Source: the human T2T-CHM13v2.0 reference genome, Homo sapiens
DNA: 64,000 nucleotides
NCBI GenBank assembly: GCA_009914755.4
Contig: CP068257.2
Span: 6,272,001 to 6,336,000, forward strand
Reading direction: 5' to 3'
The notes beneath the pieces are model-generated. The model did no database searches and was not told the origin of the DNA. It saw nothing but the letters and a program-made list of their open reading frames with translations. Below, one piece after another: positions 8,017 through 64,000 of this stretch; positions within the stretch are counted from its first letter, which is position 1, and every line of letters begins with the position of its first letter. Made by a program: the position numbers and the translations under genes.

Positions 8017-9460
<1,444 letters not shown>

Positions 9461-13000: not shown

Positions 13001-16000
13001 TACAGGGGACATTGTGACATAACTCTGCAGTTATCACCCAGGTGATGCAACTCTTCTCTATGCTCTGCCTACAGGGGACATGGTGACATATCTCTACACT
13101 GATCACCCAGGTGATGTACCTATTTTCTATTCTCTGCCTACAGAGGGCGTTGTGACATCACTCTGCACGGGTCACCCGGGTTATGTAACTCTTGTCTAGG
13201 ATCTGCCTATGGGAACACTGTGACTTATGTCTGCACTGATCACCCAGGAGATGTGACTCTTGTCTAAGCTCTGCCTATAGGCATATTGGGACATATCTCT
13301 GCACTGATCTCTGAGGTGACATAAAATTTGTCTAGGCTTTTCCTACAGTGGGATTTATGTCATATCTCTGCACTGATCACCCAGGTGATGTAACTCTTGT
13401 CTAGGCTCTGCCTACAGGGGCTATTGTGTGATATCCCTGCACTGATCACCCAGGTGATGTAACTCTTGTCTAGGCTCTGCCTACAGGGGCATTTTCACAT
13501 ATCACTGCACTGATCACAGAGATGATGTAACTCTTGTATAGGCTTCGACGACAGGGGCATTGAGACATATCTGTGCACTGATCACCGAGGTGATGCAACT
13601 CTTGTCTTGGATCTGCTTATAGGGGGCATTGTGACATATCTCTGCCCTGATCACCCAGGTGATGTAACTCTTGTCTAGGCTCTGCCTACTGGAGACATTG
13701 TGACATATCTCTGCACTGATCACCCAGGTGATGTCACTTTTGTCAAGGATATGGCTACAGGGACATTGTGACATGTAAATGCACGATCACACATCTCATG
13801 TAACTCTTGTCTAGGCTCTGGCTAGAGGTGGCTTGTGACACATCTTTGCACTGATCACCCATGTGAAGTAACTATTGTTTAGGCTCTGCTTAAAGGGACC
13901 TTGTCGCATATCTCTGCACTTATCACCCAGGTGATGTAACACTTGTTTAGGCTCTGCTTACAGAAGGTATTGTGACATATCTCTGCACTGATCACCTAAG
14001 TGTTGTAACAATTGTGTAGGCTCTGACTACAAGGGTATTTTGAAATATCCCTGCACTGTTAACCGAGGTGATGTAACTCTTGTATAGGCTGTGCCCACAG
14101 GGGAATTGAGACATAACTCTGTACTGATCACGAGGTGATCCAACTCTTGCCTGGTCTCTGCCTACTGGGGACATCGTGACATATCTCTGCACTGATCTCC
14201 CAGGTGCTGTAACTTTAATCTCGGCTCTGGCTACACGGCATTGTGACATATCACTGCACTGATCACCCAGATTATATAACTCTTGTCTAGGCTCTGCCTA
14301 CAGGGGGCTTGTGACATATCTCTGCACTGATCACCCAAGTGATATAACAATTCTCCAGGATTTGCCTACAGGGTGCTGTTTGACATATCCCTGCAATGAT
14401 CTCCCAGGTGATATACCACTTATCAAGGCTCTGCCTACAGGGGCATTGCCATGTATCTCTGCACTGATCACCTAGGTCATGTAACTCTTGTCTAGGCTCT
14501 GCCTACAGTGGCATTGTGACATATCTCTTCACTGATCACTCAGGTGATGTAACTCTTTACTAGGATCTGCCTAAATGGTGCTTTGTGACATCTCACTGCA
14601 ATGATCACCCAGGTGATGTACCACTTGTCAAGGCTCAGCCTACAGGGACATTGCGATGTATCTCTGCACGGATCACCTAGGTCATGTGAAACTTGTCTAG
14701 GCTCTGCCTACAGTGGTATTGTGGCATATCTCTGCACTGATCATCCAAGTGATATAACTCTTGTCTAGGATCTGCCTAAAGGGACTTTGTGACATAACTC
14801 TGCACTAATCATCCAGGTGATGGGGCTCTTGTCTAAGCTCTGCCTAAGGGGGCATTGTGACATATTACTGCACTGATCACCCAGGTGACGGACTATTGTC
14901 TTGAATCTGCCTATGGAGGCATCATGACGTATCTCTGCACTGATCACCCATGTGATGTAACTGTTGTATATGCTTCGCCTACAGGGGAATTGTGAGAGAT
15001 CTCGCCACTGTTCACGCAAGTGATGTAACTATTGTCTAGGCTTTGCCTACAGAAGTCTTTGTGACATACCTTTGCACTGTTAACCCAGATAGTGTAACTC
15101 AACTAAGTTCTGCCTTCAGGAGCTTTGTGACATATCTCTGCACTGATCACTTAGGTGATGTAACACTTTTATAAGCACTGCCTACAGGGAATTTTGACGA
15201 ATCTCTGCACTGATCACCTAGGTGAAGTAACTCTTGTCTACCCTCTGCCCAAAGGGGGCATTGTGAAATATTTCTCCACTGATCACCCAGGTGATTCAAC
15301 TCTTTTCTAGGATCTGCCTACAGGGGGTATTGTGAAATATCTCTGCACTGCAAAACTAGGTGATGTAACACTTGTCTAGGCTCTGCCTACATGGGCGTTT
15401 TCACATATCCCTGAACTGATGACAAAGGTGATGTAACTCTTGCCTAGCCTTTACCCACAGGGGACGTTGTGACATATCTCTGCACTGATCACCCAGGTGA
15501 TGTAACTCTTCTCTATGCTCTGTCTACAGGGCAGATTGTGACATAACTCTGCACTGATCACCCAGGTGATGCAACTCTTCTCTATGCAGTGCCTACAGGG
15601 GGTATTGTGACATACCTCTGCACTGATAACCCAGGTGATGTAACCCTTTTCTACTCTCTGCCTACTGAGGGCATTGTGACAACACTCTGCACGGAATACC
15701 CGTGTTATGTAACTCTTGTCTAGGCCCTGCCTATGGGGGCACTGTGGCTTATCTCTGCACTGATCACCCAGGAGATGTGACACTTTTCTAAGCTCTGCCT
15801 GGAGGGACATTGGGACATTTCTCTGCACTGATCGCTGAGGTGATGCAAAACTTGTCTAGGCTTTGCGTACAGTGGGTTTTATGACATATCTCTGCACTGA
15901 TCACCCAGGTGATGTAACTCTTGTCTAGGCTCTGCTTACAGAGGGTATTGTGAGATATCTCTGCACTGATCACCCAGGGGATGTAACTCTTGTCTAGGCT

Positions 16001-18258
16001 GTGCCTACTGGAGACATTGTGACATATCACTGCACTGATCACCGAGATGTTGTAACTCTTGTATAGGCTTCACTGACAGGGGGCATTGAGACATATCTCT
16101 ACACTGATCACCGAGGTGATGCAACTATTGTCTGGGATCTGCTTACAGGGTGCATTGTGACATATCTCTACCCTGATCACCCAGTTGATGTAACTCTTGT
16201 CTAGGCTCTGCCTACTGGAGACATTGTGACATATCTCCGCACTGATCACCCAGGTGATGTTAGTTTTGTCAAGGATATCGCTACAGGGACATTGTGACAT
16301 GTCACTGCACTGATCACACAGCTGATGTAACTCTTGTCTAGGCTCTGGCTACAGGGGCATTGTGACATAACTCTGCACTGATCACCCAGGTGATGTGACA
16401 CTTGTCTAGGCTCTGCCTACAGGGGCATTGTGAAATATCTCTGCAGTGATAACGCAAGTGATGTAACTTTTGTCTATATCTGCCTACTGGCGGCATTGTG
16501 GCATATTTCTGCACTGATCACCCAGGTGATGGACTCCTGTCTTGGATTTGCCTATGGGGGCATAGTGACATATCTCTGCACTGATCACTCATGTGATGTA
16601 ACGCTTGTCTAAGCTGCGCCTAAAGGGGAATTGTGACAGATATCTCCCCTGATCACCCAGATGATGTAACGATTTTCTGTGATTTGTCTACAGGGGGATT
16701 TGTGACATATCTTTGCACTGATCACCCAGGAGGTGTAACTGTTGTCTATGCTTGGCCTATATGGGATTTGTGACATATTTCTGCACTGATTACCCAGGTG
16801 ATGTAACTCTTGTCTAGGCTCCACCTCCAGGGGGTATGGTGACGTATCTCTGCACTGATCACTCAGTTGATGTAACATTTATCTAGGCTCTGCCTACAGA
16901 GATGTTTTGACATAGCTGTGCACAGATCAACTAGATTATGTAACTCTTGTCCACTCTCTGCCTACAGGGGGCATTGTGAAATATCTCTGCACTGATTACC
17001 CAGGTGATGGGACTCTTTTCTATACTCTGCCTAGAGGGGGAATTTGTGACAAATCTCTGGACTGATCACCCAGACGATGGAAGTCTTGTCTAGGCTCTGT
17101 CTATGAGGTCATTGTGTCAAATATCTGCACTGATCACCCAGTTGATTTAACTCTTGTCTAGGCTCTGTCTAGAGGGATTTTTCTAACATATCACTGCACT
17201 GATCACCTAGGTGATGTAAGCCTTGTATGGGCGTTGCCTACAGAAGGCTTTGTGACAGATCTGTGCACTGATCTCTGAGGTAATGCAACTCTTGTCTAGG
17301 CACTGCCTACAGGGTACATTGGTACATACCTCTGCACTGATCACCCAGGTGATGGACTTTTGTCTTAGATGTGCCTACATGGACATTGTGACACATCTCT
17401 GAACTGATCAACCAAGTGATGAAACTCTTGTCTAGGCTCTGCCTACAGGGGCTTTGTGACACATCTCTGCACTGATCACCCTGGGGAGGGAACTCTTGTC
17501 TATGCTCTGCCTACAGGAAGCTTTATGACTTATACCTGCACTGATAACCTAGGTGATGTAACACTTGTCTAGGCTCTGCCTACACGGGAATTCTCACATA
17601 TCTCTGCACTGATCACCGAGGTGATGTAACTCCTGTCTATGTTCAGCCTGCAGGAGAGTTTTGACATATCTCTGCACTGATCACCCAGGTGATGTAACCC
17701 TTGTCTAAGCTCTGCCTACACGGGCATTGTGACAGATCTCTCCACTGCTCACCCAGCTGATGTAACAATTGTCTGGGATTTGCCTACAGGGGCTTTGTGA
17801 TATACATTTCCGCTGATCAAACAGGTGATGTAACCCTTGTCAAGGTTCTGCTTATAGGGGCTTTATGACATATCTCTGCACTGATCACCCCAGGAAGGAA
17901 ACACTTGACTACACTCTGCCTACAGGAGGCTTTACGACTTATCCCTGCACTGATCACTAGGTGATGTAACACTTGTCTAAGCTCTGTATACACGGGAATT
18001 TTCACATATCTCTACACTGCTCACCTAAATGATGTACCGCTTGTGTAGGTTCAGCCTACTGTGGATTTCTGATGTACCTATGCACTGATCACCGAGGTGA
18101 TGTAAATCATTTCCAGGCTTTTTGTACAGGGGACATTGTGATATATCTCTGCACTGATCACCCAAATGATGGAAATCCTCTCTAGGCTCCGCAGGGAGGG
18201 TGCATTGTGACATATCTCTGAACTGATCATTCAGTTCTGTAACTATTCTCCAGGCTTT
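10088..18258. repeat. Beta-satellite array, 68-bp monomers, orientation F.
   Basis: Same monomer family and period as 1-7311. The first roughly 600 bp after block A resemble the first 600 bp after block B (19130 onward). Confidence 0.92.
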
Positions 18259-19129
18259 GACTAAAGAGTGTCAGAAGGTGTTGGGAGATCCTCAGCCGGA
18301 ATTTCACGACAAGGGCACAGAGAGGCGAGAGGGCTCCCTTACACGTCAGCCAGTGTGCGCAATGAGCGCCGGTCTAGCCAGGAGGCCAGCAAAGAGAGCT
18401 AGAGGTCAGCGTTCCACCGCCAGGCGCCCCATGGTGGCAGCTGGGAGGCTGCAGGGGCACGGGCTCTTTTAAAGGCCCGCAGGCAGGCAGGCTCCACCAC
18501 TTCATGAATGGCGGTGAGCCCTGGGACAGCCCGCCCCACACCAGAAGGGTCCCAGCTCGTCGAGGCCTGTAGCCGGAGGGTGATCGGGTGTGGGGGGATG
18601 GCGTGGTGATGGTGGTGGTGGGGCTGGATAGACGAAGAGGAAGGGGGCGAAGGGGAAAGGGTGAGGGGGGCGCGTTTCGGGAGCTGGATCTCCGGACCTC
18701 TCCAGGAATCCCGCGGGAACTGGAGGCTGCTCTCTGGGCTCCCACGCGTTTTCAGCAGAGACAAACTGGCCTGGGAGTGTGGCCGGGAGTGTGGAACTGA
18801 ACTTCCGTGAGTCTTCAGTGTTCCAGGCCCTCTCTCCGTGAAGGAGGCAGTGCCTGTGGGTGGCGCCATTGCCAGGACAGTCTGACACACGCAGCCATGT
18901 GGCTGTCATTTATTTCTACTTTGGAGACCAGAGCGAGACCCCAGAGAGAAGATGCCTCCCTAGCGTGATGGACTGACGATGGATTCCCGTGTGCAGCAAC
19001 ATGGGGAGACTGCAGTGTGGCCGGTTTGGAAACTGGCAAGGAGAGCGAAGGAACCATGCCGGTCTTCCACACTTCCCTCATGTTTCCGGGTGCCCGCAGA
19101 GCTCCGGGAGCAAACAGTTAGCATGACAC
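18259..19129 (-). repeat. D4Z4-like unit B, internally deleted. The 3' flank (18259-~18464) is fused directly to the TATA/promoter-proximal region (~18465-19129). The whole DUX4L ORF, about 1.9 kb, is missing.
   Basis: 18259-18464 aligns to block A 7312-~7520, and 18465-19129 aligns to block A ~9428-10087. The junction is CACGGGC|TCTTTTAAAGGCCCGCAGG at about 18464/18465. The TATA position here reads TTTAAAAG on the sense strand. Confidence 0.85.
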
Positions 19130-21757
19130 ATCTCAGAACTGTTCAACAAAGTGATGTAACACTTGTCTAGGCTCTGCCTACAGGGGCTTTGTGACATATC
19201 TCTGCACTGTTCACCCAGCTGATGGGAGTTTTTTCTAGGCTCTGCCTGTGGGGACATTGTGACATATCTCTACACTGATCACCTTGGTGATGTAACTCTT
19301 GTGTTGGATCTGCCTATGGGGGCATTGTGACATATTTCTACACTGATCGCCCAAGTGATGGGACTCTTGTCTAGGCACTGTGGATGGGGGCTTTGTGACT
19401 TATCTCTGCACTGATCACCCAGGTGATGTAACGATTAACTAGGCTCTGCCTACGGGGCATAGTGACATATCACTGCATTGATCACCGAGGTGATGTAACT
19501 CTTGTCCAGGCTCTGCCTATAGGGGGCCTTGTGACATATCTCTGCACTGATCACCTAGGTGATGCAACTCTTGCTTACGCTCTGCCTGCAAGGCATTATG
19601 AAATATCTCTGCACTGATCACCAAGGAGATGGGAATCTTCTCTAAGCTCTGCCTACTGGGGGCATTGTCACATATTTCTGCACTGATCACCCATGTGATG
19701 GACTCTTGTCTTGGATTTGCCTATGGGGGCATTGTGACATATCTCTGCACTGATCACCCAGGTGATGTAACTCTTGTCTAAGCTCTGCCTAAAAGGGCAT
19801 TGTGACAGATCTCTGCACTGATCACTCAGGTGATGTAACTATTGTCTAGGCTCTGCTTAAAGGGGCCTTGTCACATATCTCTGCACTGATCACCCAGGTG
19901 ATGTAACTCTTGTCTAGGCTCTGCTTAAACCTGGTATTGTGACGTATCTCTGCACTGATCACATAAGTGATTTAACACTTGTGTAGGCTCTGCATTCAGG
20001 GGCATTTTGACATATCTCTGCACTGTTAACCGAGGTGATGTAACCCTTGTCTAGGCTGTGCCCACAGGGGGATTGAGACATATCTCTGCACTTATTCCGA
20101 GAAGATCCAACTCTTGCCTGGTCTCTGCCTACTGGTGACATTGTGACATATCTCTGCACTGATCTCCCAGGTGCTCTAACTATATTCTAGGCTCTGGCTA
20201 CACGGCATTGTGACATATCACTGTACTGAACACCCAGGTGATATAACTCTTGTCTAGGCTCTGCCTACAGGGGGCTTGTGACATATCTCTGCACTGATCA
20301 CCCAGGTGATATAACTCTTCTCTAGGATCTGCCTACAGAGTGCTTTGTGACATATCCCTGCAATGATCACCCAGGTGATATACCATATGTCAAGGCTCTG
20401 CCTACAAGGGCATTGTGACAGAACTCTGCACTGATCACCCAGGTGATGGGACTCTTGTCTAGGCTCTCCCAACAGTGGCTTTGTGACATATCCCTTCACT
20501 GATCACCCAGGTGATGCAAATCTTTTGTAGGATCTGCCTACAGGGTGCTTTGTGACATATCCCTGCAATGATCACCCAGGTGATATACCACTTGTCAAGG
20601 CTCTGCTTACAGGGGCATTGCGATGTATCTCTGCACTGATCACCTAGGTCATGTAACTCTTGTCTAGGCTCTGCCTACAGTGGCATTGTGACATATCTCT
20701 GCACTGATCATCCAAGTGATGTAACTCTTTTCCAGAATCTGCCTAAAGGGACTTTGGGACACAACTCTGCACTGATCATCCAGGTGTTGGGCTTTTGTCT
20801 AGGCTCTGCCTAAGGGGGCAATGTGACATATTTCTTCACTGATCACCCAGGTGACTGAGTCTTGTCTTGGATCTGCCCATGGGGGCATTGTGACATATCT
20901 CTGCACTGAACACCCAGGTGATGTAAGTGTTGTACAAGCTCTGCCTACAGGGGAATTGTGAGGGATCTCACCACTGATCACCATAGTGATGTAAATATTG
21001 TCTAGGCTTTGCCAACAGGAGGCTTTGGAACATACCTTTGCACTGATCACCTAGGTGATGTAACTCATCTAAATTCTGCCTACAGGAGCTTTGTGACACA
21101 TCTCTGCACTGATCACTTAGTTGATGTAACACTTTTATAAGCACTGCCTATAGGAAATTTTGACAAATCTCTGCACTGATCACATATGTGATGTAACCCT
21201 TGTCTACCCTCTGCCCAAAGGGGGCATTGTGAAATATCTCTGCATTGATAACCCAGGTGATTCAACTCTTGTCTAGGATCTGCCTACAGGGGGTATTGTG
21301 AAATATCTCTGCACTGATCAGCTAGGTGATGTAACTCTTGTCTTGGCTCTGCCTACATGGGCGTTTTCACATATCCCTGAACTGATGACAAAGGTGATGT
21401 AACTCTTGTCTTGGCTCTGCCTACATGGGCGTTTTCACATATCCCTGAACTGATGACAAAGATGATGTAACTCTTGCCTAGGCTTTGCCTACAGGGGACA
21501 TTGTGACATATCTCTGCACTGATGAAGTGATGAAACCCTTGTCTAGGTTTAGCCTATTGGGAATTTCTGTCATACCTATGCACTGATTACGGAGGTGATG
21601 TAAATCATTTCCAGGCTTTTTGTACAGGGGACATTGTGATATGTCTCTGCACTGATCACCCAAATGATACAAATCTTCTCTATGCTCTGCAGGGAGGCTG
21701 CATTGTGACATGTTTCTGAACTGATCATTCAGGAGATGTAACAATTCTCCAGGCTTT
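19130..21757. repeat. Beta-satellite array, orientation F.
   Basis: 68-bp monomers. A local tandem duplication of one monomer at about 21345-21480 (...GATGACAAAGGTGATGTAACTCTTGTCTTGGCTCTGCCTACATGGGCGTTTTCACATATCCCTGAACT... appears twice). Confidence 0.9.
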
Positions 21758-23660
<1,903 letters not shown>

Positions 23661-26600
23661 AGCCTGGAGAATAGGTACATCTCCTGGATGATCAGTTCAG
23701 AAATGTGTCACAATGCCCCCTCCCTGCGGAGCATAGAGAAGATTTGCATCATTTGGGTGATCAGTGCAGAGATATAACACAATGTCCCCTGTACAAAAAG
23801 CCTGGAAATGATTTACATCACCTTGGTGATCAGTGCATAGGTATGTCAGAAATCCCCAGTAGGCTGAACCTAGACAAGGGTTACATCACTTAGGTGATGA
23901 GTGTAGAGATATGTGAAAATTCCCGTGTAGACAGAGCCAAGACAAGTGTTACATCACCTAGTGATCAGTGCAGGGATAAGTCGTAAAGCCTCCTTTAGGC
24001 AGAGTGTAGAAAATTGTTTCCTCCCTGGGGTGATCAGTGCAGAGAAATGTCACAAAGCCCCTGTAAGCAGAACCTTGACAAGGGTTACATCACCTGTTTG
24101 ATCTGCGGAAATGTATATCACAAAGCCCCCTGTAGGCAAAACCCAGACAATTGTTACATCACCTGGGTGAGCAGTGGAGGGATCTGTCACAATGCCCCTG
24201 TAGGCAGAGCTTAGACAAGGGTTACATCACCTGGGTGATCAGTGAATAGATATGTCAAAACGTTCCTTTAGGCTGAACCTAGACAGGAGTTACATCAACC
24301 AGGTGATCAGTGCACAGATATGTGAGAATTCCTGTGTAGGGAGAGCCTAGACCAGTTTTTCATCAACTAGGTTATCTGTGCAGGTATAAGTCATAAAGCC
24401 TCCTGTAGGCAGAGCGTAGACAAGAGTTCCATCCCCAGGGTGATCAGTGCAGAGATGTGTCACAAAGCCCCTGTAGGCAGAGGCTAGACAATAGTTTCAT
24501 CACTTGTTTGTTCAGTTCAGAGATGTGTCACAATGTCCATGTAGACAGATCTAAGACAAGCGTCCATCACCTGGGTGATCAGTGCAGAGATATGTCCCGA
24601 TGTCCCCTGTAGGCACTGCCTAGACAAGAGTTGCATCACCTCAGAGATCAGTGCATAGATATGTCACAAAGCCTTCTATAGGCAAAGCCCATACAAGGCT
24701 TACATCACCTAGGTGATCAGTGCAGTGATATGTCACACAAATCCCTGTAGACAGACCGTAGACAAGAGTTACATCACCTGGGTGATCAGTGCAGATATTT
24801 GACACAATGCCCCCATAGACAGAGTCTAGACAAGACTTCCATCTCCTGCGTGATCAGTGCAGAGATATGTCACAAATCTCCCTCTAGGCAGAGTATAGAG
24901 AAGAGTCCCATCACCTGGGTGACCAGTGCAGAGTTACTTCACAATATCCCCTGTAGACAGAGAGTTGACAAGAGTTACATAACCTACGTGACCTGTGCAG
25001 AGCTATATCAAAACGCCCCTGTAGGCAGATCCTATGTAAATGTTACATCACCTGGGTGATCAGTGCAGAGATACGTCACAATAGCCCCTGTAGGTGGAGC
25101 CTAGAAATGAGTTACATCACCTGGGTGATCAGTGCAGAGATAAGTCACAATGCACCCTGTAAGCTGTGCATAGAGAAGAGTTGCATCACCTGGGTGATCA
25201 GTACAGAGATATGTCACAATGGCCCCTGTTGGCAGAGCACAGAGAAGAGTTGCATCACCTGGGTGATCAGTGCAGAGATATGTCACAGTGCCCCCGTAGG
25301 CAAGGCCTAGGCAAGAGTTACATCACCTTTGTCATCAGTTCAGGGATATGTGAAAACGCCCCTGTAGGCAGAGCCTAGACGAGTGTTACATCACCTAGTT
25401 GATTAGTGCAGAGATATTTCACAATACCTCCTGTAGGCAGATCCTAGACAAGAGTTGAATCACCTGGGTGATCAGTGCAGAGATATTTCACAATGCCCCC
25501 TTTGGGCAGAGGGTAGACAAGAGTTATATCACCTAGGTGATCCGTGCAGAGATTTGACAAAATTCCCTGTATGCAGTGCTTATAAAAGTGTTACATCACC
25601 TAAGTGAGCAGTGCAGAGATATGTCACAAAGCTCCTGTAGGCAGAACTTAGATGAGTTACGTCACCTGGGTGATCAGTGCAAAGGTATGTCACAAAGCCC
25701 CGTGTAGGCAAAGCCTAGAATATCGTTACATCACTTGGGTGATCAGTGGTGAGATTTCTCACAGTTCACCTGTCGGCAGAGCTTATACAACAGTTACATC
25801 ACCTGGGTGATCAGTGCAGAGACATGTCACAATGCCCCCATAGGCAAATCCAAGACAAGAGTCCGTCACCTGGGTGATCAGTGCAGAAATATGTCACAAT
25901 GCCCCCTTAGGCAGAGCCTAGACAAAACCCCATCACCTGGATGATCAGTGCAGAGTTATGTCGCAAAGTCCCTTTAGGCAGTTCCTAGACAATGTTACAT
26001 CACTTGGATAACCAGAGCAGAGATATGTCACAATGCCAATGTAGGCAGAGCATAGACAAGATTTACATGACCTAGGTGATCAGTGCAGAGATGCATCGCA
26101 ATGAACCTGTAGGCAGAGCCTTGACAAGTGGTACATCACCTGGATGAACATTGCAGGGATATGTCACAAAGCACCCTGTAGGCAGATCCCAGAAAATAGT
26201 TACATCACCTGGGTGATCAGTGCAGTGATATGTCACAATGCCACTGTAGGCAGAGCCTAGACAAGAATTACATGACCTAGGTGATCAGTGCAGAGATACT
26301 TCGCAATGCCCCTGTAGCCAGAGCCTTGACAAGTGGTATATCACCTGCGTGATCATTGCAGGGATATGTCACAAGGCACCCTGTAGGCAGATCCTAGAGA
26401 AGAGTTATATCACCTAGGTGATCAGTGCAGAGATATGTCACAAGCCCCCTGTAGGCAGAGCCTAGACAAGGGTTATATCACCTGGGTGATCAGTGCAGTG
26501 ATATGTCACAATGCCGTGTAGCCAGAGCCCAGACTAAAGTTACAGCACCTGGGAGATCAGTGCAGAGATATGTTACAATGTCCCCATTAGGCACAGACCA

Positions 26601-29600
26601 GACAACAGTTGGATCACCTCGGGATCAGTGCAGACATATGTCTCAATCCCCCTGTGGGCACAGCCTAGACAATTGTTACATCACCTCGGTTAACAGTGCA
26701 GAGATATGTCAAAATGCCCCTGTAGGCAGAGCCTTCGCAAGGATTACATCACTTATGTGATCAGTGCAGAGATATGTCACAATACCCCCTGTAAACAGAG
26801 CCTAGACAAGAGTTACATCACCTGGGTGATCAGTGCAGAGATATGTGACAAGGCCCCTTTAAGCAGAGCCTAGACAACAGTTACATCACCGGAGTGATCA
26901 GTGCAGAGATCTTTCACAATGCCCTTTTAGGCAGAGCTTAGACCACAGTTACATCATCTGGGTGATCAGTGCAGAGATATGTCACAATGCCCCCATAGGA
27001 AAATCCAAGAAAAGAGTCCGCCACATGGGTGATCAGTGTAGAAATATGTGACAATAGCCCCAGGAGGCAGAGCCTAGAGAAAAGTCCAATCACCTGGGTG
27101 ATCAGTGCAGAGATATGTCACAAAGCCCCCATACACAGAGCATAGACAAGAATCCCATCACCTGGGTGATCAGTGAAGACATATGTCAAAATGACCCCAG
27201 AGGCAGATCCAACACAAGAGTTACATCACCTGGCTGATCAGTGCAGAGATATGTCAGAATGCTCCTCTAGGCTGAACCTAGAAATGAGTTACATCAACTG
27301 AGTGATCAGTGCAGAGATATGTGAGAATTCCCGTGTAGGCAGAGTCTAGACAAGTGTTACATCACCTAGGTTATCAGTGCAGGTATAAGTCATAAAGCCT
27401 CCTGTAGGCAGAGCATAGACAAGACTTTCCTCCCCAGGGTCATCAGTGCAGAGATGTGTCACCAAGCCCATTTAGGCAGAGCCTAGACAAGAGTTTCATC
27501 ACTTGGTTGATCAGTTCAGAGATGTGTCACAATGTCCATGTAGGCAGATCTAAGACAAGAGTCCATCTCCTGGGTGATCAGTGCAGAGATATGTACCAAT
27601 GTCCCCTGGAGGCAGTGCCGAGACAAGAGTTGCCTCACCTTAGCGATGAGTGCATAGATATGTCACAAAGCCTTCTGTAGGCAAAGCCCATACAAGGCTA
27701 ACATCACCTAGGTGATCAGTGCAGTGATATGTCACAAAAATTCCTGTAGACAGAGCCTAGAAAAGAGTTACATCACCTGGGTGATCAGTGCAGATATTTG
27801 ACACAATGCCCCCATGGACAGAGCTTTGACAAGACTTCCATCACCTGGGTGATCAGTGCAGAGATATGTCACAAACCCCCTCTAGGCAGAGTAAAGAGAA
27901 GTGTCCCATCACCTGAGTGATCAGTGCAGAGATATTTCACAATGCCCCTGTAGGCTGAGAGTGGACAAGAGTTACATAACCTAGGTGATCTGTGCAGAGC
28001 TATTTCAAAACGCCCCTGTAAGCAGAGCCTAGATAAATGTTACATCACCTGGGCGATCAGTGCAAAGATACGTCGCAATACCCCCTGTAGTTGGAGCCTA
28101 GACAAGAGTTACATCACCCGGGTGATCAATGAAGAGATACTTCACAATACACCCTGTAGTTGGAGCAGAGACAAGAGTTACATCACCTGGGTGATCAGTA
28201 CAGAAATATGTCACAAAGCCCCTGTAGGCAGAGCCTAGAAAAGAGTTACATCACCTAGTTGATCAGTGCAGAGATATTTCACAATGTCCCCTATAGGCAA
28301 AGCCTAGACGTGAGTTACATCACCTTTGTAATCAGTTCACGGATATGTGAAAACGCCCCTGTGGGGAGAGCCTAGACAAAAGTTACATCACCTAGGTGAT
28401 CAGTGCAGAGATATTTCACAATATCCCCTGTAAGCAGATCCTAGACAAGAGTTGAATCACCTGGGTGATCAGTGCAGAGATATTTCACAATGCCCCCTTT
28501 GAGCAGAGTGTAGACAAGAGTTACATCACCTAGGTGATCAGTGCAGAGATTTGTCAAAATTCCCTGTAGGCAGTGCTTATAAAATTGTTATATCACATAA
28601 GTGATCAGTGCAGAGATATGTCACAAAGCTCCTGTAGGCAGAACTTAGATGAGTTACATCACCTGGATGATCAGTGCAAAGGTATGTCACAAAGCCCCCT
28701 GTAGGCAAAGCCTAGACAATAGTTACATCAGTGGGGTGATCAGTGGCGATATCTCTCACAATTCCCCGGTAGGCAGAGCTTATACAACAGTTACATCAGC
28801 TGGGTGATTATTGCAGAGATATGTCACAATGCCCCCATAGGCAGATCCAAGACAAGAGTCCGTCACCTGGGTGATCAGTGCAGAAATATGTCACAATGCC
28901 CACTTAGGCAGAACCTAGACAATAGCCGCATCACCTGGATGATCAGTGCAGAGTTATGTCACAAAGTTCCTTTAGGCAGATCCTAGACAAGAGTTGCATC
29001 ACTTGGATGATCAGTGCAGAGATATGTCACAATTCCACTGTAGGCAGAGTCTAGACAAGAGTTACATGACCTAGGTGATTAGTGCAGAGATACAGCGTAA
29101 TGTCCCTGTAGGCAGGGCCTTGACAAGTGGTACATCACCTGGATGATTATTGCATGGATATGTCACAAAGCATCCTGTAGGCAGATCCTAGAGAAAAGTT
29201 ATATCACCTGGGTGATCAGGGCAGAGTTATGTCACAAGCCCCTGTAGGCAGAGCCTAGACAAGAGTTATATCACTTGGGTGATCAGTGCAGTGATATGTC
29301 ACAATGCCGTGTAGCCAGAGCCTAGACTAAAGTTACAGCACCTGGAAGATCAGTGCAGAGATATGTCACAATGTCCCCAGTAGGCAGAGACCAGGCAAGA
29401 GTTGGATCACCTCAGGATCAGTGCAGAGTAATGGCTCAATCCCCATGTGGGCACAGCCTAGACAAGGGTTACATCACCTCGGTTAACAGTGCAGAGATAT
29501 GTCAAAATGCACCTGTAGGCATAGCCTACACAAGTGTTACATCACTTAGGTGATCAGTGTAGAGATATGTCCCAATACCCCTGTAAGCAAAGCCTAGGAA

Positions 29601-31894
29601 AGGGTTACATCACCTGGGTGATCAGTGCAGAGATATGTGACAAGGCCCCTTTAAGCAGAGCCTAGACAATAGTTACATCACCTGAGTGATCAGTGCAGAG
29701 ATCTGTCACAATGCCCCTTTAGGCAGAGCTTAGACCAGAGTTACATCACCTGGGTGATCAGTGCAGGGATATGTCACAATGCTCCCATAGGCAAATCCAA
29801 GACAAGAGTCTGTCACCTGGGTGATCAGTGCAGAAATATGTGACAATGCTCCCAGTAGGCAGAGCCTAGAGAAGAGTCCCATCACCTGGGTGATCAGTGC
29901 AGAGATATTTCACAATGCCCCTGCAGGCAGAGCGCAAGCAAGCTTTACATCACCTAGATGATCAGTGCAGAGATATGTCACAAGCCCCCCAATAGGCAGA
30001 GCCTGGACAAGAGTTATATCACCTCGGTGATCAATGCAGTGATATATCACTATGCCCCGTAGGCAGAGCCTAGTCAAGCATTACATCACCTGGGTGATCA
30101 GTGCAGAGATATGTCACAAAGCCCCCAAACCCAAGGCCTAGACAAGAGTCCCATCACCTGGGAGATCTGTGAAGAAATATGTCACAATGCCCCCATAGGC
30201 AGATCCAACACAAGAGTTACATCACCTGGGTGATCAGTGTAGAGATATGTCACAATGCCTGCATAGGCAGAGCCTAGACAAAAGTCCCATCACTTGGGTG
30301 ATCCGTGCAGAGTGATGTCACAGCGCCCTCTGTAGGCACAGACTAGAAAATAGTTGCATCACCTCAGTGATCAGTGCGGAGATATGTCAAAATGTCTCCA
30401 GTAGGCAGAGACTAGACAAGAGTTATATCACCTGGGTGATCAGGGCAGAGATATGTCACAATGCACCCTGTTAGCAGATCCCAGACAAGAGTTGCATCAC
30501 CTCGGTGATCAGTGCAGAGATATGTCTCAATGCCCCCTGTCTGCGAAGCCTATACAAGAGTTACATCATCTCGGTGATCAGTGCAGTGATATGTTAAAAT
30601 GCCCCTGTATGCCGAGCCTAGACAAGAGTTACATCACCTGGTTGATCAGTGCAGAGATATCTCACAATACCCCCTATAAGCAGAGCCTAGACAAGAGTTA
30701 CATCACCTGGGTGATCAGTGCAGACATATGTCATAAATCGCACTGTAGGCAAAGCCTAGACAAGTTTTACATCACCTCAGCGATCAGTGCAGAGATATGT
30801 CCCAATGTCCCTCTAGGCAGAGGTTAGACAAGAGACACATCTCCTGGGTGATCACTGCAGTGCTAAGTCACAATGCCCCAATAGGCAGAGCCTAGACAAG
30901 AGTTACATAACCAGGGTGATCCGTGAAGAGTGATGTCACAACGCCCTCTGTAGGCAGAGACTAGAAACGAGTTACATCACCTGGGTGATCAGTGCAGAGA
31001 TATGTCACAATGCCCCCTGTAGGCAGAGCATAGAGAAGAGTTGCATCACCTGGGTGATCAGTGCAGAGATATGTCACAATGGCCCCTGTAGGCAGAGCAT
31101 AGAGAAGAGTTGCATCACCTGGGTGATCAGTGCAGTGATATGTCACAATGGCCCCTGTAGGCAGAGCATAGAGAAGAGTTGCATCACCTGGGGATCAGTG
31201 CAGAGATATGTCACAATGTCCCCTGAAGGCAAAGCCTAGGCAAGAGTTACATCACCTTTGTCATCAGTTCAGGGATATGTGAAAATGCCCCTGTAGGCAG
31301 AGCCTAGACAAGAGTTACATCACCTAGTTGATCAATGCAGAGATATTTCACAATACCCCCTGAAGGCAGATCCTAGACAAGAGTTGGATCACCTGGGTTA
31401 ACAGTGCAGAGATATTTCACAATGCCCCCTTTGGGCAGAGGGTAGACAAGAGTTACATCACCTAGGTGACCACTGCAGAGATTTTTCAAAATTCCCTATA
31501 GGAAGTGCTTATAAAACTGTTACATCACCTAGATAATCAATGCAGAGATATGTCACAAGGCCCCCTGTAGGCAGAGCCTGGACAAGAGTTACATCACCTC
31601 GGTTATCAATGCAGTGATATGTCACTATGTCCTGTAGGCAGAGCCTAGTCAAGCGTTGCATCACCTGGGTGATCAGTGCAGAGATATGTTCACAAAGCCC
31701 CCATACACAGAGCCTAGACAAGAGTCCCATCACCTGGGTGATCAGTGCAGAAATAGGTCACAATGCCCCCATAGGAAGATCCAACACAAGAGTTACATCA
31801 CCTGGGTGATCAGTGTAGAGTTATGTCACAATGCCCCCATAGGCAGAGCCTAGACAAAAGTCCCATCACCTGGTGATCAGTGCAGAGATATGGT
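23661..31894. repeat. Beta-satellite array in the opposite orientation, 'R'. Monomers read ...GATCAGTGCAGAGATATGTCACAATGCCCCTGTAGGCAGAGCCTAGACAAGAGTTACATCACCTGGGT... on the + strand.
   Basis: Same 68-bp family read as the reverse complement. The first roughly 300 bp (23661-23960) mirror the reverse complement of 21480-21757 at about 90% identity. Confidence 0.92.
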
Positions 31895-32853
31895 TTTCCG
31901 GGCAGACCTCCTGGCTGCACCTGCTGCAGTGCACAGGCCGGCTGAGGTGCACGGGAACCCGCGGGCTGGCGGAGCTCTGCGGGCACCCGGAAACATGCAG
32001 GGAAGGGTGGAAGACAGACATGGTGCCTGCGGCCGGGGGTTGTTGGGGTGGGGGTGGAGGGTGTGGTGATGGTGGTGGTGGGGCCGGAGAGACGAAGAGG
32101 AAGGGGGCGAGGGGGAAGGGGTGAGGGGTGTGCATTTGAGGGGCTGGCTCTCCGGACCTCTCCAGGAATCCCACGGGAACTGGAAGCCGCTCTCTGGGCT
32201 CCCATGCACCTTCAGCAGGGAGAAACCCGCCTGGGAGGGTGGAGTGGAGAGTGGAACTGAACCTCCGTGGGAGTCTTGAGTGTTCCAGGCCCTCTCTCCG
32301 TGTAGGAGGCAGTGCCTGTGGGCCTACAGAGGGCGTTGTGACATCACTCTGCACGGATCACCCGGGTTATGTAACTCTTGTCTAGGCTCTGCCTACGGGG
32401 GCATTGTGACTTATCTCTGCACTGATCACCCAGAAGATGTGACTCTTGTCTAAGCTCTGCCTAGAGGGACACCCAGGTGATGGGACTCTTGTCTAGGCTC
32501 TGTGTATGGGGGCTTTGTGACATGTCCCAATGTCCCCGCGATGGCACTCTCGAAACCTTCGGAGGGCACCCTCCCCAGCCCCATCCCCCACCCCCGGAAA
32601 ATGTGTCCTCCCCTGGGCTGAGTGGCTAGACCTGCAGTCATTGCACACACCGGCTGACGTGCAAGGGAGCCCCCTGGCCTCTCTGTGCCCTTGTGCATCC
32701 GTGCTCAGTACAGAAATATGTCACAAAGCCCCTGTAGGCAGAGCCTAAATAAGAGTTACATCTCCTGGGTGGTCAGTGCAGAGATATGTCATAAATCCCT
32801 GTGTAGGCAAAGCCTAGAGAATTTTACATCACCTCAGCGATCAGTGCAGAGAT
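31895..32853. repeat. Mosaic of short D4Z4-like fragments and beta-satellite monomers in alternating orientations. 31897-~32025 is 5'UTR-like plus far-upstream pieces, DUX4 sense on +. ~32026-32322 is promoter-distal hhspm3-like, antisense on +. 32323-32520 is beta-satellite F. 32521-32700 is an inverted chimera: DUX4 start codon with about 12 codons fused to the 3' flank, with internal deletions. 32701-32853 is beta-satellite R.
   Basis: 31897-31960 (CCGGGCAGACCTCCTGGCTGCACCTGCTGCAGTGCACAGGCCGGCTGAGGTGCACGGGAACCCGC) aligns to the canonical D4Z4 5'UTR in sense. 32026-32322 aligns to block A 9510-9830. 32533-32570 reads CCGCGATGGCACTCTCGAAACCTTCGGAGGGCACCCTCCC, encoding M-A-L-S-K-P-S-E-G-T-L-P (cf. 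DUX4 [12 protein letters not shown]) on +, followed directly by the reverse complement of 3' flank sequence. Confidence 0.7.
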
Positions 32854-33331
<478 letters not shown>

Positions 33332-33952
33332 TCATGAATGGCGGTGAGCCCTGGGACAGCCCGCCCCACCCCGGAAGGGTCCGAGGGCGTCGAGGCCTGC
33401 GGCCGGGGGCTGGTGGTGTGGGGGGGAGGGCGTGGTGATGTTGATGGTGGGGCCAGAGAGACGAAGAGGAAGGGGGCGAGGGGGAAGGCGTGAGGGGGGC
33501 GCGTTTCAGGGATTGGCTCTCCGGGCCTCTCCAGGAATCCCGCGGAAACTGGAAGCCTCTCTCTGGGCTCCCACGAATCTTCAGCAGGGAGAAACCGGCC
33601 TGGGAGGGTGGAGGGGAGTGTGGAACTGAACTTCCGTGGTAGTCTTGAGTGTTCCAGGCCCTCTCTCCGTGAAGGAGCCAGTGCCTGTGGGTGTCGCCAT
33701 TGCCGGGACAGTCTCACACACGCAGGCGTGTGGCTCTCGTTCATTTCCACGTAGGAGACAAGAGCGAGAGAAGATGCCTCCACAGCGTGAAGGCTTGACG
33801 ATGGATTCCCGTGTGCGGCAACATGGGGAGTCTGCAGGTTGGCCGGTTTGGAAACTGGCAAGGAGTGCAAAGGCACCATGGCGGCCTTCTACCCTTCCCT
33901 GCATGTTTCTGGGTGCCCGCAGACCTCCAGGAGCAAACAGTCAGCATGACAC

Positions 33953-36900
33953 ATCTCTGAATTGATCAACAAAGTGATGTAACTCTTGTCAAGGCTCTTC
34001 CTACACGGGAATTCTCAGATATCTCTGCACTGAACACCCAGATGACGGACCCTTGTCTTGGATCTGCCTATGGGGGCATTGTGACATATCTCTGCACTGA
34101 ACACCCAGGTGATGTAACTGTTGTATAAGTTCTGCCTACAGGGGAATTGTGAGAGATCTCGCCACTGATCACCCAAGTCATGTAACTATAGTCTAGGCTT
34201 TGCCTAAAGGGGGCTTTTTGACATACATTTGCACTGATCAACCAGGTGATGTAACTCATCTAAGCTCTGCCTACAGGAGCTTTGTGACATATCTCTGCAC
34301 TGATGACTTAGGTGATGTAACACTTTTATAAGCACTGCCTATAGGGAATTTTGACAAATCTCTGCACTGATCACCTAGGTGATGTAACTCTTGTCTACCC
34401 TCAGCCCAAAGGGGGCATTGCGATATATCTCTGCATTGATCACCCAGGTGTTTCAACTCTTGTCTTGGATCTGCCTACAGGGGTTATTGTGAAATATCTC
34501 CGCACTGATCAACTAGGTGATGTAAGTCTTGTCTAGTCTCTGCCTACAGGGTCGTTTTCACATGTCCCTAAACTGATGACAAAGGTGATGTAGCCCTACT
34601 CTAGGCTCTGCCAACAGGGACGTTTTCACATATCCCTGAACTGATGACAAAGGTGGTGTAACTCTTGCCTAGGCTTTGCCTACAGGGGACATTGTGACAT
34701 ATCTCTGCACTGATCTCCCAGGTGCTGTAACTTTAATATAGGCTCTGGCTACACGGCATTGTGACATATCACCGCACTGATCACCCGGTGATATAACTCT
34801 TGTCTAGGCTCTGCCTACAGGGGGCTTGTGACATATCTCTGCAGTGATCACCCAGGTGATATAACTCTTCTCTAGGATCTGCCTACAGGGTTCTTTGTGA
34901 CATATCCCTGCAATGATCACCCAGGTGATATACCACTTGTCAAGGCTCTGCCTACAGGGGCATTGCATTGTATCATGACACTGATCACCTATGTGATGTA
35001 ACCCTTGTCTAGGCTCTGCCTACAGTGGCATTGTGACATATCTCTGCACTGATCACCCAGGTGATATAACTCTTCTCTAGGATCTTCCTACAGGGTGCTT
35101 TGTGACATATCCCTGCAATGATCACCCAGGTGATGTACCACTTCTCGAGGCTCTGCCTACAGGGACATTGTGATGTATCTCTGCACTGATCACCTAGGTC
35201 ATGTAATTCTTGTCTAGGCTCTGCCTACAGTGGCATTGTGACATATCTCTGCCCTGATCATCCAAGTGATGTAACCCTTGTCTAGGATCTGCCTAAAGGA
35301 ATTATGTGACATAAGTCTGCACTGATCATCCAGGTGATGGGGCTTTTGTCTAGGCTCTGCCTAAGTGGGCATTGTGACATTTTTCTGCACTGATCACTTA
35401 GATGACGGACTCTTGTCTTGGATCTGCCTATGGGGGCATTGGGACATATCTCTGCAATGATCACCCGGGTGATGTAACTGTTGTATAAGCTCTGCCTACA
35501 GGGGAAATGTGAGAGATCTCACCCCTGATCACCCAAGTGATGTAACTATTGTCTAGGCTTTGCCCACAGGGGGCTTTGTGACATACATTTGCACTGATCA
35601 CCCAGGTGATGTAACTCATCTAAGTTCTGCCTACAGGAGCTTTATGACATATCTCTGCACTGATCACTTAGGTGATGTAACACTTTTATAAGCACTGTCT
35701 ACAGGGAATTTTGACAAATCTCTGCACTGATCTCCTAGGTGATGTAACTCTGGTCTAGGGTCTGCCTACAGGGGGAATTTTGAAATATCTCTGCACTGAT
35801 CAACTAGGTGGTGTACCTCTTGTCAAGGCTCTGCCTACAGAGGCGTTTTCACATATCTCTTCACTGATGACAAATGTGATGTAACATTTGCCTAGGCTTT
35901 GCCTACAGGGGACATTGTGACATATATCTGCACTGATCACCCAGGTGATGCAACTCTTGCCTAGGCTTTGCCTACATGGGACATTGTGACATATCTCTGC
36001 ACTGATCACCCAGGTGATGGAACTCTTCTCTATGGTCTGCCTACAGGGGTCATTGTGACATATCTCTGCACTGATCACCCAGGTGATGCAACTCTTCTCT
36101 ATGCTCTGCCTACAGGGGGCATTGTGACATATCTCTGCACTAATCACCAAGGTGATGTAACTCTTTTCTAGTCTCTGCCTACAGAGGGCGTTCTGACATC
36201 ACTCCGCACAGATAACCCGGGTTATGTAACTCTCGTCTAGGCTCTGCCTAGGGGGAAATTGTGACTTATTTCTGCACTGATCACCCAGGAGATATGAGTC
36301 TTGTCTAAGATATGCCTAGAGGGACATTGGGACATATCTCTGCACTGATCGCTGAGGTGATGTAAAACTTGTCTAGGCTTTGCCTACAGTGGAATTTATT
36401 ACATATCTCTGCACTGATCACCCAGGTGATGTAAGTCTTTCCTAGGCTCTGCTTTCAGGGGGTATTGTGAGATATCTCTGCACTGATCACCCAGGTGATG
36501 TAACTCTTGTCTAGGCTCTGCTTACAGGGGCATTTTAACATATCACTTCACTGACTACCGAGATGATGTAACTCTTGTATAGGCTTCGCCGACAGGGGGT
36601 ATTGAGATATACCTCTGCACTGATCACCGAGGTGATGCAACTCTTGTCTGGGATCTGCTTACAGGGGGCATTGTGACATATCTCTGCCCTGATCACCCAG
36701 GTGATGTAACTCTTGTCTAGGCTCTGCCTACTGGAGATATTGTGACATATTTCCGCACTGATCACCGAGGTGATGTTAGTTTTCTCAAGGATATGGCTAC
36801 AGGGACATTGTGATATGTCACTGCACTGATCACACAGCTGATGTAACACTTGTCTAGGTTCTGGATACAGGGGTCTTGTGACACATCTCTGCACTGATCA

Positions 36901-53965: not shown

Positions 53966-55403
<1,438 letters not shown>

Positions 55404-55620
55404 TCATGAATGGCGGTGAGCCCTGGGACAGCCCGCCCCACCCCGGAATGTTCCCAGGGCATCGAGGCCCTGGGGTGGAGGGCGTGGTGATGGTGGGGCC
55501 GGAGAAACGAAGAGGAAGGGGGCGAGAGGGAAGGTGTGAGGGGGGCGCGTATCGGGGGCTGGCTCTCCGGACCTCTCCAGGAATCCCGCGGGAACTGGAA
55601 GCCTCTCTCTGGGCTCCCAG

Positions 55621-62840: not shown

Positions 62841-64000
<1,160 letters not shown>

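What the first reader, a model, noticed from the sequence alone, without database searches (positions are those of the whole stretch)
21480..23960. Inverted duplication centred at about 23320 inside a D4Z4-like unit. It is the left breakpoint of the satellite orientation flip.
Block C begins at 21758 with the canonical junction and 3' flank. It is interrupted in homeobox 2 at about 23320 and continues as the reverse complement of its own first roughly 340 bp (23321-23660). It then passes into beta-satellite that mirrors the satellite to the left of the block; 23661-23960 is about 90% identical to the reverse complement of 21480-21757. The same peptide-like ORFs appear on opposite strands on the two sides ([11 protein letters not shown]... 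on + at 21809 and [11 protein letters not shown]... on - at 23607; MSQCSLPAEHREDLYHLGDQCRDISQCPLYKKPGNDLHH on - at 21478-21744 and MSQCPLPAEHREDLHHLGDQCRDITQCPLYKKPGNDLHH on + at 23705-23893). The result is a palindrome with arms of at least 600 bp and a spacer of about 1.2 kb holding the DUX4L 3' half. The arms are about 10% diverged and the left arm has a local tandem duplication, so the structure is old. Palindromes of this kind in GC-rich, CpG-dense repeats are candidate fragile or fold-back sites.
Basis: seen in the sequence. Interest (0 to 1): 0.7.

Follow-up and report, generated by a model that had tools for sequence, protein, structure and literature searches.

The report
Old strand-flip junction in beta-satellite/D4Z4 array
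The inverted repeat is real, but it is the edge of an old block of flipped satellite DNA lodged inside a dead DUX4-like gene copy and later copied many times in the human genome, which makes it an ordinary feature of this kind of heterochromatin.

Summary
Arms 21525-22080 and 23336-23891 are 85% complementary with a 1,255-bp spacer. They mark the left edge of the only reverse-oriented stretch of 68-bp beta satellite (23654-31892).

- **Not a self-copy.** The right arm is not a copy of block C's own start. It is closer to the other satellite-to-unit junctions in the window (89.5-90.8%) than to the left arm (81.4%). The two arms share 3 derived sites, against 78 private to the left arm.
- **A split unit.** Block C stops at 23338 and resumes at 32851 with 87 bp missing. 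So one D4Z4-like unit is split in homeobox 2 by 9,512 bp of mostly inverted composite repeat. Both junctions have a 3-bp overlap.
- **Not an assembly artefact.** Independent metagenome contigs, one labelled human gut, cross the junction at 99.8%, 99.1% and 97.1% identity.
- **Old and multi-copy.** Paralogous copies at 85-91% carry the same junction. Two of them contain both arms.

Strand switches in beta-satellite/LSau composite arrays are already documented in the T2T literature. Fragility is unlikely in duplex DNA and was not tested.

The parts
19124..21757 (+). Beta satellite (68-bp monomers) in the array's majority orientation, left of the split unit
   Evidence: Tandem Repeats Finder gives period 68 and 38.5 copies. 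The flank next to the unit is atypical: 81-83% to the equivalent flanks of blocks A, B and E, which are 92-95% alike among themselves.
21525..22080 (.). Left arm of the inverted repeat (233 bp of satellite plus the first 323 bp of the D4Z4-like unit)
21758..23338 (-). Left half of the split D4Z4-like unit. DUX4 sense is on the minus strand. It holds the 3' flank, the C-terminal region and helix 3 of homeobox 2.
   Evidence: It is colinear with block A 7324-8891 (82.9-83.2%) and block E 53197-54835 (85.1%). The minus strand reads [12 protein letters not shown]. The Pfam Homeodomain match covers positions 45-55 of 57 only. CpG density is 5.7%.
22081..23335 (-). Spacer between the arms: the rest of the left half-unit (DUX4-like 3' half, with in-frame stops)
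23336..23338 (.). Junction 1: a 3-bp overlap where plus-strand unit homology ends and inverted unit homology begins
   Evidence: Plus-strand alignments to A and E end at 23338, and inverted alignments start at 23336. Alignments A1 and A2 show the same. The same junction occurs in 14 independent contigs.
23336..23891 (.). Right arm of the inverted repeat
   Evidence: It is closest to the junctions of blocks E, A and B, not to the left arm.
23339..23658 (+). Inverted first ~320 bp of another D4Z4-like unit (its 3', satellite-adjacent end; DUX4 sense here on the plus strand)
   Evidence: Reverse-complement match to A 7324-7633, E 53213-53577 and C 21716-22080
23654..31892 (-). Beta satellite in reversed orientation, about 121 monomers, with a ~3.0 kb higher-order period
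   Evidence: The Tandem Repeats Finder consensus is the reverse complement of that of the rest of the array. AT skew is positive. 23658-26999 matches 26659-29996 at 84.9%.
31893..32850 (.). Patchwork right end of the inserted block: at least 8 short D4Z4-like and satellite pieces in both orientations
   Evidence: The pieces are 31897-31966 (-) = A 9408-9339; 31965-32028 (-) = A 10070-10007; 32025-32322 (+) = A 9524-9818; 32322-32528 (+) satellite; 32533-32576 (-) = A 9297-9255; 32569-32632 (-) = E 53623-53560; 32623-32703 (-) = A 7438-7358; 32700-32853 (-) satellite.
32851..32853 (.). Junction 2: a 3-bp overlap (GAT) between reversed satellite and the resumed unit
   Evidence: Satellite hits end at 32853 and unit homology to A 8979 starts at 32851. 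No independent copy was found.
32851..33961 (-). Right half of the same split D4Z4-like unit (start of homeobox 2, the linker, homeobox 1 and upstream region)
   Evidence: It is colinear with A 8979-10097 at 87.9%. Homeobox 1 is complete (Pfam Homeodomain 1-54 of 57, E 1.5e-17). 87 bp (A 8892-8978) are missing between the halves and occur nowhere else in the window as a separate piece.
23014..23607 (-). Chimeric 197-codon open frame across junction 1. It is not a gene and was used here only as a probe.
   Evidence: 32 protein clusters from metagenome assemblies align across the junction codon.

Best explanation
The window is a human beta-satellite/D4Z4-like (LSau) composite array. One D4Z4-like unit, a dead DUX4 copy lying on the minus strand, has been split inside homeobox 2. 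Its two halves are 21758-23338 and 32851-33961, with 87 bp lost between them. In the gap sit 9,512 bp (23339-32850) of the same composite repeat in mostly reversed orientation.

The inserted block ends about 320 bp inside another unit's satellite-adjacent end. Two paralogous copies of the satellite-to-unit junction therefore face each other across 1.25 kb, which gives the 'palindrome'.

Each junction has a 3-bp overlap. This fits end joining or replicative template switching, not homologous recombination (inferred). The event is old. The whole module (left arm, spacer, junction, right arm) was later copied with the array and now exists in several diverged copies in the human genome (shown for junction 1). 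It is a rearrangement scar with no indication of function.
For: - **Array type.** There are 68-bp repeats throughout. The GC-rich blocks carry two homeodomains. Their CpG density is 5.0-6.2%, matching the ~5.4% reported for divergent D4Z4 copies in LSAU-BSAT regions (PMC10620044).
- **Orientation flip.** It is confined to 23654-31892.
- **Split unit.** Block C ends at the equivalent of A 8891 and resumes at the equivalent of A 8979.
- **Microhomology.** Both junctions have a 3-bp overlap.
- **Arms are paralogues, not sisters.** The right arm is 89.5-90.8% identical to blocks A, B and E and 81.4% to the left arm. The arms share 3 derived sites, against 78 and 20 private ones. Left-right mean identity is 79.7% and right-canonical is 84.2%, with 0 of 1000 bootstraps reversed.
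- **Independent and multi-copy.**
  - Contig L007 matches at 99.76%, L006 at 99.13% and L008 (a human gut metagenome record) at 97.07%, all colinear across the junction.
  - L001-L005 and L009-L014 match at 85-91.5% with the identical junction.
  - Two diverged copies occur within single samples.
  - L010 and L014 span both arms.
  - Junction-bearing copies form a clade apart from blocks A and E.
  - 32 protein clusters span the junction.
Against: - The right 960 bp of the inserted block is a patchwork with pieces in both orientations, so more than one event occurred and their order cannot be resolved.
- No source copy above 96% identity is present in the window.
- Junction 2 and the 9.5-kb span have no independent confirmation.
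- An inversion between two already truncated blocks would give the same sequence, though it needs two coincidences.
- The left arms evolve unusually fast, or belong to a divergent subfamily. Rate differences could therefore hide an ancient sister relationship.
Confidence: 0.7

Rival explanations
1. Fold-back inverted duplication. Replication or repair turned back at homeobox 2 of block C and copied the unit's own start and its left satellite flank in reverse. On this view the two arms are sister copies and their divergence dates the event.
For: The arms are in register across the satellite-to-unit boundary at 85%. The junction has microhomology. From the left arm's side the right arm is marginally its best match in one 400-bp bin, at 86.4%.
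Against: - The right arm is much closer to the junctions of blocks A, B and E (satellite flank 93-95% against 82.6%), and 96.6% to the E flank against 89.8% to the left arm.
- There is no excess of shared derived sites.
- In paralogous copies that carry both arms, the arms are again only 80% alike, and the right arms group away from the left arms.
- The satellite is in register for only about 230-280 bp. The right side then carries about 1.2-1.3 kb that the left side lacks, although block B's flank has it for at least 1.1 kb and E's and A's for 0.8-1.1 kb.
- The model does not explain the resumption of the same unit at 32851.
Confidence: 0.07
2. A simple two-break inversion, either between two intact units or between two blocks that were already truncated or internally deleted.
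For: The satellite orientation flips once and flips back. Internally deleted units do exist in this array: block B equals A 7320-7522 joined to A 9421-10099.
Against: - With intact units, the right edge should show the reverse complement of unit positions beyond the break. Instead reversed satellite abuts a plus-oriented continuation of the unit.
- With pre-truncated blocks, both inversion breaks would have to fall exactly on older junctions, and those junctions would have to lie only 87 bp apart in unit coordinates.
Confidence: 0.15
3. An assembly fold-back or mis-join artefact of the source assembly.
For: Palindromic joins in GC-rich repeats are a known failure mode of assemblers. Junction 2 and the 9.5-kb span could not be cross-checked.
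Against: Junction 1 is crossed colinearly by 14 contigs from independent short-read metagenome assemblies. Three match at 97-99.8% identity, and there are several diverged paralogues.
Confidence: 0.03

Closest known systems
Strand switches ('mosaic inversion structure') in human beta-satellite arrays, as described for T2T-CHM13
   Same: There is a change of monomer orientation inside a beta-satellite array that is interspersed with LSau/D4Z4-like blocks. Altemose et al. (bioRxiv 10.1101/2021.07.12.452052) report over 200 inversion breakpoints in the HSat3B5 array and in the beta-satellite arrays of chr1 and the acrocentrics. Nurk et al. (PMC9186530) note a mosaic inversion structure in proximal BSat arrays.
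   Different: Those papers count strand switches and do not dissect them. Here the left breakpoint is resolved to 3 bp inside homeobox 2 of a D4Z4-like unit, the flipped block lies within one split unit, and the junction is multi-copy.
Divergent D4Z4-pLAM units of LSAU-BSAT composite repeats (PMC10620044)
   Same: The units are about 2.8-2.9 kb and flanked by beta satellite. They carry a double homeobox, have CpG density around 5-6%, and are about 82-88% alike among copies.
   Different: The unit in question is split and lacks 87 bp of homeobox 2. Several other units in the window are internally deleted or truncated (blocks B and E).
The single inverted, truncated D4Z4 unit (DUX4c) proximal to the 4q35 array
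   Same: Both are an inverted D4Z4-derived fragment near direct-oriented D4Z4-type sequence.
   Different: DUX4c keeps the homeoboxes and lies near FRG2, in unique sequence (my knowledge, and PMC10620044 for the chr22 paralogue). The inverted fragment here is only the ~320-bp satellite-adjacent 3' end with no homeobox, and it is embedded in satellite.
Fragile long inverted repeats (Alu quasi-palindromes in yeast, palindromic AT-rich repeats in human)
   Same: Both have two inverted arms of several hundred bp.
   Different: Fragile repeats have near-identical arms and spacers of a few to tens of bp. Recombination drops about 40-fold when the spacer grows from 12 to 20 bp, and is lost at 75% homology in duplex DNA (PMC10164571). 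Here the spacer is 1,255 bp, identity is 85% and the longest perfect run is 46 bp. The structure falls only within the permissive range reported for long single-stranded DNA.

Membership tests
Beta satellite (68-bp Sau3A family) | Long tandem arrays of ~68-bp monomers | tested here: met
   Period 68 over 1-18229, 19124-21742, 23654-31892 and 33947-62841
Beta-satellite/LSau (LSAU-BSAT) composite array | Beta satellite interspersed with D4Z4-like blocks that carry a DUX4-like double homeobox | tested here: met
   Blocks lie at 7256-10140, 18202-19140, 21758-23338 plus 32851-33961, and 53197-55619. The Pfam Homeodomain E-value is 1e-15 to 1e-17 for both homeoboxes.
Beta-satellite/LSau (LSAU-BSAT) composite array | Reduced CpG density (~5.4%) compared with the 4q/10q arrays (~9.8%) (PMC10620044) | tested here: met
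   5.0-6.2% CpG in the blocks
Beta-satellite/LSau (LSAU-BSAT) composite array | Sequence match to the LSau and D4Z4-pLAM consensus | not testable with these tools
   No repeat library or human reference is available. My recollection of the pLAM/exon 3 sequence resembles 23590-23730, but that is memory, not a test.
Satellite strand switch (inversion breakpoint within an array) | Monomer orientation reverses within one continuous array | tested here: met
   Reverse-complement consensus in 23654-31892. AT skew changes sign. Inverted pairs are listed.
Fold-back / palindromic inverted duplication | The two arms are each other's closest relatives (sister copies) | tested here: not met
Fold-back / palindromic inverted duplication | The mirrored sequence continues outward in register from the arms | tested here: not met
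   The register holds for ~230-280 bp of satellite only. There is then a ~1.2-1.3 kb difference.
Cruciform-prone fragile palindrome | Near-perfect arms with a spacer of at most tens of bp | tested here: not met
   85% identity, 1,255-bp spacer and longest exact run of 46 bp. Thresholds are from PMC10164571.
4q35 DUX4c-type inverted D4Z4 unit | The inverted unit retains the double homeobox | tested here: not met
   The inverted fragment 23339-23658 covers only the first ~320 bp of the unit and holds no WFQN motif or homeodomain.

The most novel reading that the evidence does not exclude
The palindromic module (satellite, unit start, 1.25-kb spacer, inverted unit start, inverted satellite) exists in many copies. 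It might therefore not be a passive scar. It could act as a recurrent substrate for fold-back annealing in long single-stranded DNA, or for exchange between copies, and so seed further strand switches or dicentric and Robertsonian-type rearrangements in acrocentric short arms.

A milder and more likely corollary is that many of the 'over 200' strand switches counted in beta-satellite arrays are copies of a few ancestral junctions and not independent inversions.
Probability: 0.08. Interest if true: 0.5.

Novelty: already known. Interest (0 to 1): 0.15.

Why it matters
It matters little on its own. It is one resolved example of the strand switches already reported in human beta-satellite/LSau composite arrays.

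There are two modest points of use:
- An apparent palindrome in a composite satellite need not be a fold-back duplication, and comparing each arm with the other paralogues settles the question.
- This junction is amplified, so counts of inversion breakpoints in such arrays overstate the number of independent events. The junction could also serve as a marker for tracing how composite-array segments spread between chromosomes.

Tried and rejected
- **Exact 29-mer across junction 1 in metagenome contigs:** no hit. A gapped pattern then found 5 contigs.
- **Junction 1 and junction 2 patterns in bacterial/archaeal genomes and viral contigs:** nothing. This is uninformative, because those collections hold little human DNA.
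- **Protein search with the 80-codon frame across junction 2:** only satellite-derived partial matches, none across the junction. Junction 2 therefore remains unconfirmed elsewhere.
- **Biopython bootstrap consensus tree of the arms:** it gave incoherent low-support groupings and was discarded. A plain distance matrix, a neighbour-joining tree and a direct bootstrap of group means replaced it.
- **First attempts at Pfam input and at translating blocks A and C-right:** these were in the wrong frame or contained stops. They were redone from the frames found.
- **Search for a recent source copy of the inserted block in the window:** the best matches are 92-96% and scattered over many places, so no source can be named.
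- **Simple inversion between intact units:** rejected on the structure of the right edge.
- **A local tandem duplication in the left arm:** looked for and not found.
Full report
**What the window is.** Almost all of the 64 kb is 68-bp beta satellite (Tandem Repeats Finder: period 68, hundreds of copies). It is interrupted by GC-rich blocks at 7256-10140 (A), 18202-19140 (B), 21758-23338 (C), 32851-33961 and 53197-55619 (E).

- The blocks are homologous to each other at 82-88%.
- They carry DUX4-like double homeoboxes on the minus strand. WFQN motifs were found. Pfam Homeodomain gives E 9.6e-16 for homeobox 2 of A and 1.5e-17 for homeobox 1 at 32965.
- All reading frames contain stops.
- CpG density in the blocks is 5.0-6.2%. 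This matches the ~5.4% reported for the divergent D4Z4 copies of LSAU-BSAT composite repeats on acrocentric short arms and pericentric chr1 (PMC10620044).
- The array ends at 62841 against an L1 ORF2 fragment.
- Contigs recovered from metagenome assemblies match at up to 99.8%. One of them is labelled as a human gut metagenome. The source is therefore human, or a very close relative.

**Checking the observation.** The inverted repeat is real.

- Arms 21525-22080 and 23336-23891 are 556 nt long and 85% complementary without gaps, with 1,255 nt between them. blastn gives 84.1% over 604 columns.
- The satellite part is 89.8% identical and the D4Z4-like part 82%.
- Satellite orientation is reversed only in 23654-31892, and AT skew flips at the same places. 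So this is indeed the left edge of the flip.
- The break is in homeobox 2. Block C keeps only [10 protein letters not shown], which is Homeodomain profile positions 45-55 of 57.
- The exact junction is 23336-23338, where plus-strand homology to A and E ends and inverted homology begins, with a 3-bp overlap.
- I found no tandem duplication in the left arm beyond normal satellite periodicity.

**Are the arms copies of each other?** They are not.

- I aligned 500 bp of satellite flank plus ~325 bp of unit for all five junction copies in the window. The right arm is 89.5-90.8% identical to A, B and E (93-95% in the satellite flank) but only 81.4% to block C's own left arm (82.6% in the satellite, 79.5% in the unit).
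- At sites where A, B and E agree, the two arms share 3 derived states. A further 78 are private to the left arm and 20 private to the right arm. This is no more sharing than for any other pair.
- Beyond ~230-280 bp the satellite on the two sides is no longer in register. The right side carries ~1.2-1.3 kb that the left side lacks. Block B's flank has this stretch for at least 1.1 kb, and the flanks of E and A have it for about 0.8-1.1 kb.

**What lies at the other end.** Block C stops at the equivalent of A 8891. The plus-oriented block at 32851-33961 starts at the equivalent of A 8979 and runs to the end of the unit.

- The missing 87 bp occur nowhere else as a separate piece.
- At 32851-32853 reversed satellite meets the unit, again with a 3-bp overlap (GAT).
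- So one unit is split in homeobox 2 and holds 9,512 bp of foreign-orientation material.
- That material consists of three parts:
  - ~320 bp of another unit's satellite-adjacent end (inverted);
  - 8.2 kb of inverted satellite with a ~3-kb higher-order period;
  - a 960-bp patchwork of at least eight short unit and satellite fragments in both orientations.
- A plain inversion between two intact units predicts a reverse-complemented unit tail at the right edge, and that is not there.
- An inversion between two already truncated blocks would need both breaks to coincide with older junctions lying 87 bp apart in unit coordinates.
- Insertion of an inverted segment is the most economical reading. 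It could have arisen by capture at a break or by template switching, which the short microhomologies favour.
- The patchwork shows that further small events took place.

**Independent evidence and age.**

- An exact 29-mer across junction 1 was absent from metagenome contigs. A gapped pattern found five contigs.
- A protein search with the chimeric 197-codon frame across the junction found 183 hits. Of the 120 listed, 32 clusters align across the junction codon.
- At the DNA level the retrieved contigs are all colinear across the junction:

| Contig(s) | Length | Identity to window | Window span |
|---|---|---|---|
| L007 | 839 bp | 99.76% | 22838-23676 |
| L006 | 1,379 bp | 99.13% | 22454-23832 |
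| L008 | 1,431 bp | 97.07% | 22309-23739 |
| L009 | 1,250 bp | 91.5% | 22432-23681 |
| L001-L005, L010-L014 | 0.8-2.1 kb | 84.9-88.5% | within 21724-23833 |

- The junction sequence is the same in all of the L001-L005 contigs apart from point changes.
- Single samples hold two copies that differ by 12-13%, so one genome has several paralogues.
- Junction-bearing copies form a clade apart from A and E, both in the spacer and in the right arm.
- L010 (colinear with 21738-23833) and L014 (colinear with 21724-23551) contain both arms, so the whole palindrome was copied as a module.
- In a joint analysis the right arms of all copies cluster at 86-100%. The left arms of the window and L010 pair at 85%. 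Left-right identity (79.7%) is lower than right-canonical identity (84.2%) in all 1000 bootstraps.
- This rules out an assembly artefact for junction 1. It shows a single old origin followed by amplification, and it argues against a fold-back of the unit's own start even at the time of origin.
- Junction 2 could not be cross-checked.

**Mechanism and consequences.**

- *Shown:* the anatomy, the two 3-bp overlaps, the non-sister arms and the multi-copy status of junction 1.
- *Inferred:* formation by microhomology-mediated joining or template switching of an inverted composite segment into a break in homeobox 2, followed by amplification with the array.
- Nothing suggests a function, and the DUX4-like frames are dead.
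- On fragility:
  - In duplex DNA the instability of inverted repeats falls steeply with spacer length (about 40-fold from 12 to 20 bp) and with divergence (PMC10164571).
  - A 1,255-bp spacer, 85% identity and a longest perfect run of 46 bp place this structure well outside the fragile range.
  - It lies only within the broader range (spacer up to 30 kb, up to 25% heterology) reported for repeats exposed in long single-stranded DNA in yeast (PMC10164571).
  - The intact module survives in paralogues that have diverged by 12-15%, which argues for stability.

**Comparison with what is known.** Beta-composite arrays (beta satellite plus LSau) and their many strand switches are described for T2T-CHM13. 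Over 200 inversion breakpoints are reported in HSat3B5 and in the beta-satellite arrays of chr1 and the acrocentrics (bioRxiv 10.1101/2021.07.12.452052). A 'mosaic inversion structure' is noted in proximal BSat arrays (PMC9186530). The present feature is one such switch, resolved to the base. It is not the DUX4c-type inverted unit of 4q35, because it has no homeobox and is embedded in satellite. It is not a fold-back duplication and not a classic fragile palindrome.

**Verdict.** The feature is an ordinary, already documented kind of satellite rearrangement. It has one mildly useful twist: the junction is ancient and amplified, so breakpoint counts in such arrays overstate the number of independent events. 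Interest is low.

Noticed in passing
window 62842-64000: The beta-satellite array ends abruptly at 62841 against an AT-rich (36% GC) plus-strand L1 ORF2 fragment. I recognised its endonuclease / reverse-transcriptase region by eye from the sequence. No tandem repeats are found there.
   Followed up: partly
window 18202-19140: Block B is an internally deleted D4Z4-like unit. The first ~200 bp (= A 7320-7522) are joined directly to the last ~680 bp (= A 9421-10099), so both homeoboxes are lost.
   Followed up: partly
window 31893-32850: There is a dense patchwork of at least eight 45-300 bp D4Z4-like and satellite fragments in alternating orientation at the right end of the flipped block. It looks like the trace of a complex multi-break or template-switching event. 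The order of events is unresolved.
   Followed up: partly
window 6800-7311, 17750-18258, 23659-24160, 52750-53254 versus the adjacent units: The satellite just outside the units is better conserved between copies (92-95%) than the D4Z4-like units themselves (82-87%). This probably reflects decay of methylated CpG in the units, but only 19 of 76 differences between the arms lie in a CpG context, so this is not the whole story.
   Followed up: partly
window 23658-29996 and 33947-53262: The beta satellite has higher-order periodicity of about 2.8-3.0 kb. 23658-26999 matches 26659-29996 at 84.9%. A shift of 2,796 bp gives 79.3% against a background of ~76%. The 2.6 kb between blocks B and C recurs at 47090-49637 (88.9%).
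   Followed up: no
window 7341-7456 and 9297-9411 (also 53280-53387 and 55247-55346): Each D4Z4-like unit contains an internal direct repeat of ~110 bp at 74-79% identity, one copy near its start and one ~1.95 kb further in.
   Followed up: no
protein hits P0001-P0120, e.g. P0061: Open frames from this human repeat are stored as 'proteins' in metagenome-derived protein collections. One DUX4-like homeodomain fragment is annotated as a hypothetical protein of Bacillus thuringiensis (GH893_30945). This indicates human DNA contamination in that bacterial assembly.
   Followed up: no
locus L009 versus window 22432-23681: Contig L009 is 99.1% identical to the window in the right arm but only 91.5% overall. 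It is either a chimeric short-read assembly of two paralogues or a copy that underwent gene conversion.
   Followed up: no
window 53197-55619: Block E is truncated at the equivalent of A 9702 and passes straight into satellite. It lacks the last ~440 bp present in blocks A, B and the 32851-33961 half-unit.
   Followed up: no
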